Below, one piece after another: positions 3,001 to 5,369 of a stretch of 5,369 nucleotides of DNA. Source of the stretch: a virus (taxonomy: Duplodnaviria > Heunggongvirae > Uroviricota > Caudoviricetes); the IMG/VR virus record IMGVR_UViG_2619619126_000002, positions 1 through 5,369 of that record; one strand, given 5' to 3'. A program made the position numbers. The number at the start of each line of letters is the position of its first letter. The first letter of the stretch is position 1.

Positions 3001-5369
3001 AATGGTGATTGCATATATCCTCCAAATATTGCGTGTTATGCATGTTATTTCACGCAAGTATTTTGCGCAAGTTGATTTGCTTATCACGCAATAAAGAAAT
3101 GTAATAAACGCATGAACATAGGAAACCGAGTCAGACAACTTCGCCAAGCGAAGAACATGAAAATCGCCGATCTCGCTGAAGCAATAGGAGTAGATGCGGC
3201 GAACATCTCGCGCTTAGAAACGGGTAAGCAGAAACAATTTACCGAACAAACACTGAGTAATATTGCCAAGAGCTTAGGTGTTGATATTGCTGATCTCTTT
3301 ACCTCTGCCCTCAAAAGTAATACTGTATATAAAAACAGTAATAATGAGGATGTTGCGCAGGTGAAGGATGTGTTCCGTATTGAAATGCTGGATATCAGTG
3401 CCAGTGCGGGAAATGGCCTTATCCAGGGCGGTGATGTCATTGATGTGATTCATGCCATCGAATACAGAACTGATAATGCTGTATCAATGTTCGGCGGACG
3501 ACCAGCCAATCACATCAAAGTTATCAACGTTCGTGGGGACAGTATGTGTCCAACCATTGAGCCAGGAGATCTCATCTTCGTCGATGTCAGCATCAATCAG
3601 TTTGATGGTGATGGTATATATGTCTTTGGTTTTGATGACAAAATATACGTTAAAAGACTTCAAATGATTCCTGACAAACTGCTGGTGATTTCTGATAACC
3701 AGATTTACCGTGAATGGGGAATTACTAGCGAAAACGAACACCGATTCATGGTCTTTGGAAAGGTCTTAATCAGTCAGTCGCAAACCCTTAAGAGACATAA
3801 TTAACCTCAATATCCCATCCATCGGCCACCGAAAGGTGGCTTTTTATCACCTATAATTTTGCATATCTCGCAAAATACTACTTGCATATCTCGCAATTTA
3901 ATTTTAACTTTTGTTCCAGACCAACTACAGGATTACAACAAAATCGGGTTGCAACACGGTGCATGGTGCATGTGTCGTAAGCGGTCAGTAAATGTCAAAA
4001 ACGAACAGGCAGGACGCCCACGAAGTAGCCGCCTCGGGCATATGAAGTCCAGGATGATTCGTTAGCAACAAAAAAGCGCCCTACAGGACGCTTAGCTCTT
4101 TAACAATCTGGTCCCCATCAACAAGTAACTGATAACTTGAGGAGGTGTGAAATGCACAAAACAGAACCAAAAATCGTCGCGCCTGGCTACACAGATGAGG
4201 AAATTTATGAGTGGATGACAAAGAAGCTGGCAGCTATAAACCAGCTTCGTGAAGTGCTGTCTTATCGACAGGAAACAATAGACTCCTTAAAAAAACTGGA
4301 TCAGGAAATCACGGTTTTATCACAGGATGTTACTTTAGATATTGTGCAGACAAATTAGGATCCCATTCATTTTCGTCAAAATCATCAAAGTGATGAATTT
4401 GTGATCTCCAGTCTCGATAATCTAAAAATTTCTGGGCGGTTACACTTATTTTATCAAGCGTGAGTTCATCCTGAATTGAAAGAAGAAGTTCATCAAATTT
4501 CATCTCATTAATCTGTTTTGGCATCCAGTGATGCTTCATCAGAATAAGGTGAACCAGAGCCTTTTTCCCATTCAACTGATTATAGGGTGTGCCGAATTTC
4601 TTCCGGTGCTCATTTAAGACAAGGTCCAGAAGAGTAAGTAATGTTGCCCTTGATTCAACTTTGCTTATTTCGACTGATGACACTACCCCACTGATTTCAA
4701 TGCCCCGATACTTTCCAACATTTTCACAGTGGGATTTGTACAGCGTATAGATATTACCGGACATTTCTTTTCCTTTTGCGTTGTTGGGGATAACCAGATT
4801 AACCGAATCCTTGTTGTTGGGGAATAACCAGGTCCACCTCGCCTGATGTGGCTAAAAGCAGGCACATAACAGCTAAGTATTTTCAACCAGAGAGAATCCT
4901 TAGCGTTGTGGTGAATGCGGCTCAGCGCACGCGGGTTAAGGTTGAGGCTGACAGTCGACCTTCTGTGGATACCCACCCGCCTGGTGTGCAACCTTCGCCA
5001 GGCACCGGGAGGCACCCGGCACCACAACTTTATGCTGTGTGTAGTCCTGGCGGTACCAGCTTGTACCCTTGCTTCCGGCTGGTACCGTCCTTTTTACAAA
5101 ACAGAGAAGAGCATCACCGGACGACGGGCTCATAACCCAATCCATCCGGGCGGCAGTCACCGCAGGTGTTCTTCTCTGTTTTGTGGAGAAACTAACCGAC
5201 CTTGCAGGGTCGATATGATGAGGAGCAGCAAAATGGCTAGCGAACGCAGTACTGATGTGCAGGCATTTATCGGGGAGCTGGACGGCGGCGTATTTGAAAC
5301 CAAAATCGGCGCAGTTCTCAGTGAAGTCGCTTCCGGTGTGATGAACACGAAAACCAAAGGTAAGGTCTC

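What the first reader, a model, noticed from the sequence alone, without database searches (positions are those of the whole stretch)
4781..4831. Tandem 17/18-bp direct repeats overlapping the 5' UTR of the 144-aa gene
Two near-identical copies (TTGTTGGGGA(A)TAACCAG) at a 33-bp period, the proximal one ending 17 nt from the start codon. They could be binding sites for a regulator (the GGGGATAA core is one mismatch from a DnaA-box complement, TGTGGATAA). Alternatively they could be repeats of a small RNA acting on the protein, loosely like type III toxin-antitoxin loci, although only two copies and no intervening terminator are present.
Basis: seen in the sequence. Interest (0 to 1): 0.45.

Follow-up and report, generated by a model that had tools for sequence, protein, structure and literature searches.

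The report
Repeats in a sieB-type antisense switch
The two repeats are real and belong to a conserved ~100-bp control module of lambda-like phages, homologous to the phage P22 sieB promoter and sas antisense RNA, which here drives a different prophage gene of unknown function; this is a diverged copy of a known regulatory design, not a new system.

Summary
**Observation confirmed.** GTTGTTGGGGATAACCAG (4780-4797) and GTTGTTGGGGAATAACCAG (4813-4831) lie 33 bp apart. The core motif gives 3 hits against 0.10 expected. They are interspersed direct repeats, not a head-to-tail array.

**What it is.**
- The window is the immunity and early-left region of an SfIV/SfV-like lambdoid phage.
- The repeats plus the adjacent 31-bp block (4834-4864) align collinearly with the region upstream of sieB in lambda and P22. 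That region holds the annotated sieB promoter and mRNA start and is covered by the sas antisense RNA.
- Mapped from P22, the proximal repeat carries the mRNA start of the 144-aa gene (about 4790).
- A -10-like hexamer lies between the repeats.
- The distal repeat covers the -35 region and forms a plus-strand hairpin with a GGGG loop, supported by compensatory changes and G·U asymmetry.

**Comparative picture.**
- In 84 related loci the module comes in two forms: two repeats, or one hairpin with the cargo start codon about 33 nt closer.
- It drives at least 25 unrelated cargo families.
- Homologues of the 144-aa gene occur without the repeats, so the repeats belong to the module, not the gene.

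**Rejected.** DnaA boxes and type III toxin-antitoxin.

**Verdict.** New member of a known kind; moderate-to-low interest.

The parts
4780..4797 (.). Proximal repeat GTTGTTGGGGATAACCAG. On the minus strand, about 4790-4780 is the predicted first 11 nt of the 144-aa gene's mRNA (UCCCCAACAAC), and 4791-4797 lies between the -10 and the start site.
   Evidence: Sequence. The motif is enriched. Alignment A2 to P22 places the RefSeq-annotated sieB mRNA start (L010:1336) opposite window position 4790.
4813..4831 (.). Distal repeat GTTGTTGGGGAATAACCAG. It covers the -35 region of the inferred minus-strand promoter, and it forms the upper stem and GGGG loop of a plus-strand RNA hairpin.
4809..4832 (+). 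Hairpin SL2 in the plus-strand (PL-direction, sas-like) RNA: CCU.GUUGUU-GGGG-AAUAAC.AGG.
   Evidence: Folding gives -7.2 kcal/mol on the plus strand against -4.0 on the minus strand. The plus strand is more stable in 39 of 43 two-repeat loci. On alignment A1, 6 of 7 pairs show changes on both sides; the covariation score is 0.328 against 0.229 in shuffles (0/500) and at most 0.15 in slid controls.
4796..4803 (-). Inferred -10 region of the cargo promoter: TAATCT at 4801-4796, or alternatively GTTAAT at 4803-4798.
   Evidence: It aligns with TAAACT inside the annotated P22 sieB promoter. Other families have TATAAT, TAAAAT or TATATT at the same place.
4765..4790 (-). Predicted 26-nt leader of the 144-aa gene's mRNA, with the Shine-Dalgarno sequence AAGGA at 4775-4771.
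   Evidence: Inferred from the P22 start-site annotation through alignment A2 and from the sequence.
4330..4764 (-). Cargo gene, 144 aa, function unknown. It matches phrog_5286 and is named 'ECs1072 family phage-associated protein' in RefSeq.
4834..4864 (.). Conserved 31-bp block CCACCTCGCCTGATGTGGCTAAAAGCAGGCA, with the invariant hairpin GCCUG...CAGGC. It corresponds to the 3' part of P22 sas.
   Evidence: It matches lambda 34394-34464 and P22. It occurs in at least 120 IMG/VR contigs, flanked on both sides by variable DNA.
4760..4866 (+). Inferred sas-like antisense RNA region. It covers the start codon, the Shine-Dalgarno sequence, both repeats and the block. The ends are not determined, and it may continue into the STnc100-like RNA.
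   Evidence: It is collinear with the P22 sas RNA-seq interval L010:1301-1427 (PMC13397905 Table 2). No plus-strand promoter was found next to it, so it most likely derives from PL read-through.
4105..4124 (+). Third, inverted copy of the repeat together with its -10-like flank (AATCTGGTCCCCATCAACAA). It lies 28 nt upstream of the 68-aa ORF (4152-4358).
   Evidence: (I9). It is specific to this cassette and absent in L027.

Best explanation
**What it is.** The two repeats are parts of a conserved promoter, leader and antisense module that lambdoid phages carry at the sieB position of the early-left (PL) operon. The module is oriented against PL.

**Shown here.**
- The module is homologous and collinear with the sieB upstream region of lambda and P22.
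- It always has exactly two copies, at fixed distances from a conserved 31-bp block.
- The distal copy is a covarying plus-strand hairpin with an exposed G-rich loop.
- The cargo gene behind the module is freely exchanged.

**Inferred from the P22 annotation and literature.**
- In the lysogen the 144-aa gene is transcribed from a weak sigma-70 promoter. Its -10 lies between the repeats, and its transcript starts at the C-run complementary to the proximal repeat (about 4790).
- When PL fires, on infection or induction, it transcribes the opposite strand across the gene. This yields a sas-like RNA that covers the start codon, the Shine-Dalgarno sequence and both repeats.
- That RNA pairs with the short leader and shuts off translation. 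Convergent transcription adds to the effect.

**More speculative: why two copies.** The distal hairpin shows, in its loop and 5' arm, the same sequence that is complementary to the first 10-19 nt of the mRNA. In the antisense RNA the truly antisense proximal G-run is mostly base-paired. The distal loop would then be the exposed docking site where the C-rich 5' end of the mRNA first binds, as in IS10 RNA-OUT/RNA-IN, before pairing shifts to the fully complementary segment.
For: **Homology**
- Window 4796-4866 matches lambda 34394-34464, which lies just upstream of sieB.
- Alignment A2 is collinear over about 105 nt with P22, lambda, Pocitis76, Kp4882-1, F1055 and PhiR29_1.
- P22 RefSeq annotates the sieB mRNA start inside the proximal repeat, and the promoter spans the spacer and the distal repeat.
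- The published P22 sas RNA-seq interval covers both repeats and the block.

**Comparative**
- Among 84 unique loci, the 43 two-repeat loci have a repeat offset of 33-35 bp, with copies at -53 and -20 from the block.
- The two copies within a locus are 92% identical. The same positions are about 43% identical between repeat families. The spacers diverge while both copies stay conserved.

**RNA level**
- The distal hairpin is supported by compensatory changes and shuffle controls.
- It is more stable on the plus strand in 39 of 43 loci.
- In predicted ensembles the distal G-run is unpaired with mean probability 0.72, against 0.25 for the proximal G-run, in 31 of 37 sequences.

**Promoter**
- A -10-like hexamer lies between the repeats in every family and is a perfect TATAAT in several.
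- Identity between the copies ends at the G-run, which is the mapped start site.

**Modularity**
- At least 25 cargo protein clusters follow the module.
- Mosaic breakpoints fall at window 4780 and 4834.
- The module is present in 1114 of 5426 complete E. coli genomes.
Against: - No transcript data exist for this phage. The start site, the -10 and the antisense RNA are all transferred from P22 by alignment.
- The window's -10 is weak (TAATCT or GTTAAT), and no -35 consensus is present.
- The whole 105-nt plus-strand region of the window does not fold better than shuffles (z = +1.25). The window's distal stem has an internal U/C mismatch.
- The proximal copy has no conserved hairpin.
- How P22 sas gets its 5' end (own promoter or processing of the PL transcript) could not be checked, because the 1993 papers are not held.
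- The docking idea rests only on predicted accessibility in related, non-independent sequences.
- Single-base differences between the copies are tolerated (L036, L114, L007).
- One locus (L121) keeps only the distal copy.
Confidence: 0.6

Rival explanations
1. The repeats are two DNA binding sites for one regulator, host or phage. One site lies at the -35 region and one at the start site of the cargo promoter. A protein bound at both sites, about three helical turns apart, represses or activates the promoter.
For: - The two copies are on the same strand, 33-35 bp apart in all 43 two-repeat loci.
- They sit at about -34 and +1 of the P22-annotated promoter.
- Both copies are conserved while the spacer drifts.
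- The promoter lacks a -35 consensus, as activator-dependent promoters do.
- A third copy lies upstream of the neighbouring 68-aa ORF.
Against: - The distal copy co-varies with a 3' arm to keep a hairpin, with many G·U pairs on the plus strand only. A duplex DNA site does not require this.
- The motif differs between families (CTGTAGGGGT, GTTGTTGGGGA, TTGACTGTGGAA, TTGCATTGGGG). A co-evolving, linked regulator would be needed, and none is apparent.
- The cargo proteins are unrelated.
- The CI operators are a different sequence, TTGCATATCTCGCAA.
- One-hairpin (type B) modules work with a single copy.
Confidence: 0.15
2. The repeats have no function of their own. They are the remains of a roughly 33-bp tandem duplication, or a recombination scar at a mosaic junction, that moved the promoter one unit closer to the gene.
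For: - Two-repeat and one-hairpin modules differ by about 33 nt in the distance from block to start codon: 57-75 against 34-41 nt.
- All 21 one-hairpin variants have TAT right after GGTGG, which reads TGG-TATNCT and looks like an extended -10. None of the 33 two-repeat variants has it.
- Mosaic breakpoints coincide with the repeat borders at 4780 and 4834.
Against: - Similarity between the two units stops sharply at the end of the G-run. Beyond the motif it is no better than chance.
- Both copies stay identical across phages of Escherichia, Salmonella, Klebsiella and Hafnia whose spacers have diverged by about 30%.
- Spacers are homologous across repeat families. The duplication is therefore old, and the copies have been kept alike.
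Confidence: 0.12
3. This is a type III toxin-antitoxin-like locus. The repeats encode units of a small RNA that neutralises the 144-aa protein.
For: There are two direct repeats at a 33-nt period upstream of a small gene of unknown function. ToxI-type units are of similar length (general knowledge).
Against: - Only 18-19 nt of each 33-nt unit is repeated, and there is no head-to-tail array.
- There is no terminator between the repeats and the gene.
- By homology the mRNA starts inside the proximal repeat, so the repeats are not an upstream RNA on the gene's strand.
- The protein has no ToxN/AbiQ or any PADLOC or Pfam match.
- The same repeats precede unrelated proteins, including the membrane protein SieB.
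Confidence: 0.01
4. The repeats are DnaA boxes, so DnaA controls the gene.
For: On the minus strand the proximal copy reads TTATCCCCA, one mismatch from TTATNCACA.
Against: - The distal copy has an inserted base (TTATTCCCC), which gives two mismatches.
- Homologous modules have ACCCCTACAG, CCCCAATGCAA or TTCCACAGTCAA, which bear no resemblance to a DnaA box.
- The shared core is the G/C run, not the ATAA part.
Confidence: 0.02

Closest known systems
Phage P22 sieB promoter and sas antisense RNA (Ranade & Poteete 1993, as summarised in PMC12197685 and PMC7067206; RNA-seq in PMC13397905)
   Same: - Same place in the genome: inside the PL operon, opposed to PL.
- Same order of parts: start codon, Shine-Dalgarno sequence, repeat, -10, repeat in a hairpin, conserved block.
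- Collinear sequence alignment.
- Two G-rich repeats 33-34 bp apart.
- The antisense RNA covers the leader and the start codon.
   Different: - The repeat sequence differs: GTTGTTGGGGA(A)TAAC against CTGTAGGGGT.
- The gene is an unrelated soluble 144-aa protein, not the SieB membrane protein. The SieB/Esc two-start switch is not shown here.
- No RNA or start-site data exist for this phage.
Phage lambda sieB upstream region (34380-34480)
   Same: 76% identity to window 4796-4866. It has two CTGTAGGGGT copies 34 bp apart and the same block.
   Different: To my knowledge no antisense RNA has been described for lambda at this site. The cargo is sieB.
IS10 RNA-OUT/RNA-IN antisense control (general knowledge, not tested here)
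   Same: The 5' end of a short-leader mRNA is complementary to the loop of a stable hairpin in an antisense RNA made from the opposite strand. Pairing hides the ribosome binding site.
   Different: There is no sequence relationship. Here a second identical loop lies outside the region of overlap, and the antisense RNA probably comes from a long operon transcript.
Type III toxin-antitoxin systems (ToxIN, AbiEi/CptIN)
   Same: Short direct repeats upstream of a small phage-related gene.
   Different: There is no head-to-tail array, no terminator and no endoribonuclease-like protein. The repeats are shared with unrelated genes.
Morons of lambdoid phages (promoter-gene-terminator units expressed from the prophage)
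   Same: A gene with its own promoter, inserted against the flow of an operon, followed by terminators (4248-4223 and 4093-4074), and variable between otherwise similar phages.
   Different: Here the promoter and antisense part is a conserved, reused cassette, and only the coding part is exchanged.

Membership tests
P22 sas / sieB-promoter module | Sequence homology and collinearity with the P22/lambda sieB upstream region | tested here: met
   blastn gives 76% to lambda over 71 nt. The P22 sas query hits window-type phages. Alignment A2 has 49 invariant columns across 7 phages.
P22 sas / sieB-promoter module | Location inside the early-left operon, with the gene opposed to PL | tested here: met
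   In the window the order is cI 3112-3804 (+), operators 3859-3896, cargo gene 4330-4764 (-), and yfdP-like gene from 5233 (+). P22 and lambda have the same layout.
P22 sas / sieB-promoter module | mRNA start and promoter at the repeats | tested here: inconclusive
   These are annotated for P22 and transferred by alignment to about 4790 and 4796-4803. The window hexamer is weak and there is no experimental start site.
P22 sas / sieB-promoter module | A small antisense RNA is actually made | not testable with these tools
   Only the homology to the P22 RNA-seq interval is available. No Rfam family covers it.
P22 sas / sieB-promoter module | Target gene is sieB, with an internal esc start | tested here: not met
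   The cargo matches phrog_5286 / ECs1072 family, has no Pfam match, and forms a BLAST cluster separate from SieB.
Type III toxin-antitoxin | Head-to-tail array of RNA repeat units | tested here: not met
   TRF finds nothing. Only 18-19 of each 33 nt is repeated.
Type III toxin-antitoxin | Terminator between the repeats and the toxin gene | tested here: not met
   No terminator-like site lies in 4765-4835.
Type III toxin-antitoxin | ToxN/AbiQ-type endoribonuclease toxin | tested here: not met
   There is no PADLOC or Pfam match. Structure was not predicted.
DnaA box cluster | TTATNCACA in both copies and in homologous modules | tested here: not met
   The proximal copy has 1 mismatch and the distal copy 2. 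The motif is absent in the lambda/P22 and other families.
Rfam STnc100 (neighbouring element, not the repeats) | Score at or above the family's gathering threshold | tested here: not met
   42.4 bits against a gathering score of 47, E = 6.5e-7, full model length, at 4875-5098. It is a likely divergent relative but falls below the curated cut-off.

The most novel reading that the evidence does not exclude
The two repeats are a functionally coupled pair. One encodes the 5' end of the cargo mRNA. The other displays the same complementary sequence in an exposed loop of the antisense RNA, giving a docking site outside the region of true overlap. Together with the 31-bp block they form a portable 'on in the lysogen, off in lytic growth' switch. 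Lambdoid phages would reuse this switch to drive a hypervariable slot of accessory genes (probably exclusion or defence genes), present in about a fifth of complete E. coli genomes.
Probability: 0.3. Interest if true: 0.55.

Novelty: new member of a known kind. Interest (0 to 1): 0.35.

Why it matters
If the module works as inferred, it marks genes that a prophage expresses only while dormant and silences on induction. Superinfection-exclusion and defence genes are expected to behave this way.

The conserved block and hairpin could then serve as a sequence tag for finding such genes. At least 25 unrelated, mostly uncharacterised families follow it, including the 144-aa ECs1072 family. The module is common, occurring in 1114 of 5426 complete E. 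coli genomes.

It would also extend the one-phage sas story of 1993 to a general regulatory cassette. It further suggests a testable design rule: the mRNA 5' end lies opposite an antisense loop, with a duplicated loop as the entry site.

For the finding as written, the result is mostly clarifying. The repeats are neither DnaA boxes nor a type III antitoxin.

Tried and rejected
1. **Whole-unit duplication.** I tested whether each 33-bp unit is a full duplication that includes the Shine-Dalgarno and start-codon region. Local alignment of the unit tails against shuffles gave roughly uniform p-values, with only a few at 0.01-0.05. This is not supported.
2. **STnc100 as an HK022 put-type antiterminator RNA.** The HK022 immunity and early regions give no STnc100 match at E <= 0.1. 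No support, so dropped.
3. **One well-folded RNA across the region.** Single-sequence folds of about 105 nt differ between phages. Only P22 beats shuffles (z = -2.1), while the window gives z = +1.25. Only the distal hairpin and the block hairpin are conserved.
4. **A conserved hairpin around the proximal copy.** Not found.
5. **A plus-strand promoter for the antisense RNA.** The only promoter-like site is at 4518-4545. That is 1 site against 2.7 expected by chance, so it is not evidence.
6. **Copy-number variation.** Every two-repeat locus has exactly two copies. The third, inverted copy is specific to this cassette.
7. **Function of the 144-aa and 68-aa proteins.** Only PHROG families of unknown function match, with no Pfam or PADLOC hit. 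I ran no further search on them, because the repeats are not tied to this cargo.
8. **The original 1993 papers.** They are not held. One literature search was uninformative, and a search for a described lambdoid sieB-slot hotspot found nothing relevant.
9. **The extended -10 of the one-hairpin form (TGG-TATNCT).** It fits all 21 variants but falls below the promoter scanner's 9-of-12 rule. It remains an inference.
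Full report
**1. The observation**

The window reads GTTGTTGGGGATAACCAG at 4780-4797 and GTTGTTGGGGAATAACCAG at 4813-4831. The start-to-start spacing is 33 bp and the copies differ by one extra A. The 144-aa ORF on the minus strand (4330-4764) begins 16 nt beyond the proximal copy, with AAGGA as its Shine-Dalgarno sequence. The 11-nt core with up to one mismatch occurs three times in the window against 0.10 expected, and no shuffle of 200 reaches three. The third hit is an inverted copy at 4112-4122. Tandem Repeats Finder reports nothing, because only 18-19 nt of each 33-nt period is repeated. These are interspersed direct repeats, not a tandem array.

**2. Where we are**

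The window is the immunity and early-left region of an SfIV/SfV-like lambdoid phage. It is 99% identical to phages Kati, SfIV and others over 4300-5369. The layout, is:

| Feature | Coordinates |
|---|---|
| cro | 2754-3014 (-) |
| cI | 3112-3804 (+) |
| Two operator copies TTGCATATCTCGCAA | 3859-3896 |
| 68-aa ORF | 4152-4358 (+) |
| 144-aa gene | 4330-4764 (-) |
| Repeats | 4780-4831 |
| STnc100-like RNA (42.4 bits, below the gathering score of 47) | 4875-5098 (+) |
| yfdP-like gene | from 5233 (+) |

The 144-aa gene therefore lies inside the PL operon and points against it.

Megablast hits break off at window 4780 (the PhiR29 group) or at 4834 (the SfV group). These are the two outer borders of the repeat pair.

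**3. The key lead**

A sensitive search with 4765-4875 hit phage lambda at 34394-34464, directly upstream of sieB. Lambda, P22 and Hafnia phage Pocitis76 each have two copies of a different motif, CTGTAGGGGT, at a 34-bp period. In each, the motif pair is followed by the same conserved block, CCACCGAGCCTGATGTGGTTAAAAGACAGGCA.

The P22 RefSeq record annotates the sieB mRNA start at the last base of the proximal motif. It places the sieB promoter across the spacer and the distal motif. The P22 sas antisense RNA blocks SieB translation while the internal Esc product is still made (PMC12197685, PMC7067206). By RNA-seq it maps to an interval that starts at the sieB start codon and covers both repeats and the block (PMC13397905 Table 2; located).

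A seven-phage alignment is collinear over about 105 nt. Both G-runs, parts of the spacer and the block are invariant. Transferring the P22 annotation puts the start of the 144-aa mRNA at about 4790 (UCCCCAACAAC...). It puts the -10 at TAATCT (4801-4796) or GTTAAT (4803-4798), and the -35 region inside the distal repeat.

**4. The family**

They fall into two forms.

| | Type A | Type B |
|---|---|---|
| Unique loci | 43, including the window | 32, including SfV |
| Repeats | Two, offset 33-35 bp, at -53 and -20 from the block; never one or three | None; one hairpin |
| Cargo start codon, distance from the block | 57-75 nt | 34-41 nt, one unit closer |

- All 21 distinct type B sequences read GGTGG-TATNCT on the minus strand, which looks like an extended -10. 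None of the 33 type A sequences does.
- Type A instead has a -10-like hexamer between the repeats. It is TATAAT in several families, TAAAAT or TAAACT in the P22 group, and TAATCT/GTTAAT in the window.
- The repeat motif comes in families: GTTGTTGGGGA, CTGTAGGGGT, TTGACTGTGGAA, TTGCATTGGGG and TTGTGGGGG.
- The two copies within a locus are 92% identical over 12 nt. The same positions are about 43% identical between families.
- The spacers are homologous across families but diverge freely.
- Both copies are therefore under constraint and are kept alike.

**5. RNA or DNA?**

The distal copy is the 5' arm and loop of a hairpin. In the window this is CCU.GUUGUU-GGGG-AAUAAC.AGG at 4809-4832.

- Across families the 3' arm changes to match the 5' arm: UGUA/UACA, GCAUU/AAUGU, GUCGUU/AACGAC, GUUGUG/CACGAC.
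- On a 22-sequence alignment, 6 of the 7 pairs show changes on both sides.
- The covariation score is 0.328, against 0.229 ± 0.021 in shuffles (0 of 500 reach it) and at most 0.15 when partners are slid.
- Many pairs are G·U on the plus strand, which would be A·C mismatches on the other strand.
- Accordingly, the plus strand folds better in 39 of 43 type A and 26 of 32 type B loci.

The structured strand is thus the PL-direction, sas-like strand, not the cargo mRNA.

The proximal copy has no conserved hairpin. Identity between the copies ends exactly at the end of the G-run, which is the mapped transcription start. In predicted ensembles of the antisense RNA the distal G-run is exposed, with mean unpaired probability 0.72. 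The proximal G-run is mostly paired (0.25), largely with the pyrimidine-rich anti-Shine-Dalgarno stretch. This holds in 31 of 37 sequences. The sequences are related, so the Wilcoxon p-value of 1e-5 is only indicative.

**6. Modularity**

- The genes behind the module fall into at least 25 unrelated clusters among 74 loci. These include SieB, small zinc-ribbon proteins and the window's family.
- The window's family occurs with both forms: 7 type A and 2 type B.
- The DNA on the other side of the block is just as variable, with 37 clusters. In some loci an intrinsic terminator follows the block on the plus strand.
- The hairpin(s) plus block are therefore an island of conservation between two variable regions.
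- In complete E. coli genomes the module is found in 1114 of 5426. Of these, 426 have the 144-aa gene start attached. Many others have homology beginning at window 4780.

**7. How it most likely works**

*Shown:*
- The module is homologous to the P22/lambda sieB control region.
- The architecture is fixed.
- The distal copy is a plus-strand hairpin.
- The cargo is exchangeable.

*Inferred from P22:*
- In the lysogen the gene is transcribed from the promoter between the repeats. The mRNA begins with the C-run and has a leader of about 26 nt.
- When PL is active, transcription of the opposite strand gives an RNA complementary to the leader, the Shine-Dalgarno sequence and the start codon.
- That RNA switches translation off, and convergent transcription adds to the effect.

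*Speculative:* the distal loop is the accessible entry site for the C-rich 5' end of the mRNA, which is complementary to it over 10-19 nt. This would explain why the two copies are kept identical while the motif itself drifts between families. It resembles the pairing of the RNA-IN 5' end with the RNA-OUT loop in IS10 (general knowledge).

**8. Rivals**

- **A DNA-binding regulator at -35 and +1.** This is not excluded. It does not explain the compensatory changes or the strand asymmetry, and it would need a co-evolving factor.
- **A functionless duplication scar.** This is contradicted by conservation of both copies across diverged phages and by the sharp end of similarity.
- **Type III toxin-antitoxin.** This fails each defining feature tested.
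- **DnaA boxes.** These also fail: the match is one-sided and is not conserved in homologous modules.

**9. Limits**

- There are no transcript data for this phage.
- The window's -10 is weak and its distal stem has one mismatch.
- The origin of the 5' end of sas could not be checked in the primary papers.
- The block's own role is open. It could be the 3' stem of the antisense RNA, the upstream half of the type B promoter, or a recombination linker.
- The block was used as the search key, so its invariance within the set carries no information.

**10. Verdict**

It is wrong on DnaA and on type III toxin-antitoxin. The feature is a diverged member of a known regulatory design, now attached to a different gene. 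Interest is moderate-to-low. It would rise if the coupled-repeat docking mechanism and the cassette's use as a marker of a hypervariable accessory-gene slot were confirmed.

Noticed in passing
window 4875-5098 (+): A STnc100-like structured RNA (RF02076, 42.4 bits, below the gathering score of 47, E = 6.5e-7). It starts 10 nt after the conserved block and ends in an intrinsic terminator (GGTACCAGC...GCTGGTACC followed by a T run). PhiR40_1 carries a different variant that has the same closing helix, GCGUUGUGGU...ACCACAAC. HK022's put-containing region gives no STnc100 hit.
   Followed up: partly
window 4105-4124 (+): A third, inverted copy of the repeat together with its -10-like flank (AATCTGGTCCCCATCAACAA). 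It sits just after a bidirectional terminator (4074-4093) and 28 nt upstream of the 68-aa ORF. It is found only in loci with this cassette and is absent where the same ORF follows the PL leader directly (L027). It may be a second copy of the promoter and start-site unit.
   Followed up: partly
window 4152-4358 (+) and 4330-4764 (-): The 68-aa gene (phrog_1744) and the 144-aa gene (phrog_5286, ECs1072 family) converge and overlap by 29 nt. The same convergent pair recurs at 36-45% protein identity in L027 and L116. This suggests a two-gene accessory unit of unknown function.
   Followed up: partly
window 5096-5120 and 5160-5184: A 25-nt inverted repeat (84% complementary, 39 nt apart) lies between the STnc100-like terminator and the yfdP-like start codon at 5233. 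It is conserved in SfV, PhiR40_1 and, more distantly, F1055. It may be a further structured leader.
   Followed up: no
L003 (SfV) 2460-2505 and 31 other IMG/VR loci: A one-hairpin form of the module. The stem co-varies (CCTTTTA/TAAAAGG, CTTGG/CCAAG, GCTGG/CCAGC), and the minus strand always reads GGTGG-TATNCT, a possible extended -10. The cargo start codon lies 34-41 nt from the block.
   Followed up: partly
L008, L014, L020, L023, downstream of the block (+): An intrinsic terminator follows the conserved block within about 15-40 nt on the plus strand. In those phages this would delimit a discrete sas-like small RNA.
   Followed up: no
window 3859-3873, 3882-3896 and 3077-3091: There are three copies of the operator-like 15-mer TTGC(A/T)TATC(T/A)CGCAA. 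Two lie downstream of cI (OL-like) and one lies between cI and cro (OR-like). They are unrelated to the repeats under study.
   Followed up: no
L121 1330-1426: A locus that keeps the spacer and the distal repeat but has lost the proximal repeat to a mosaic junction. A signal-peptide-like protein is the cargo there. This is a natural variant that could show what the proximal copy contributes.
   Followed up: no
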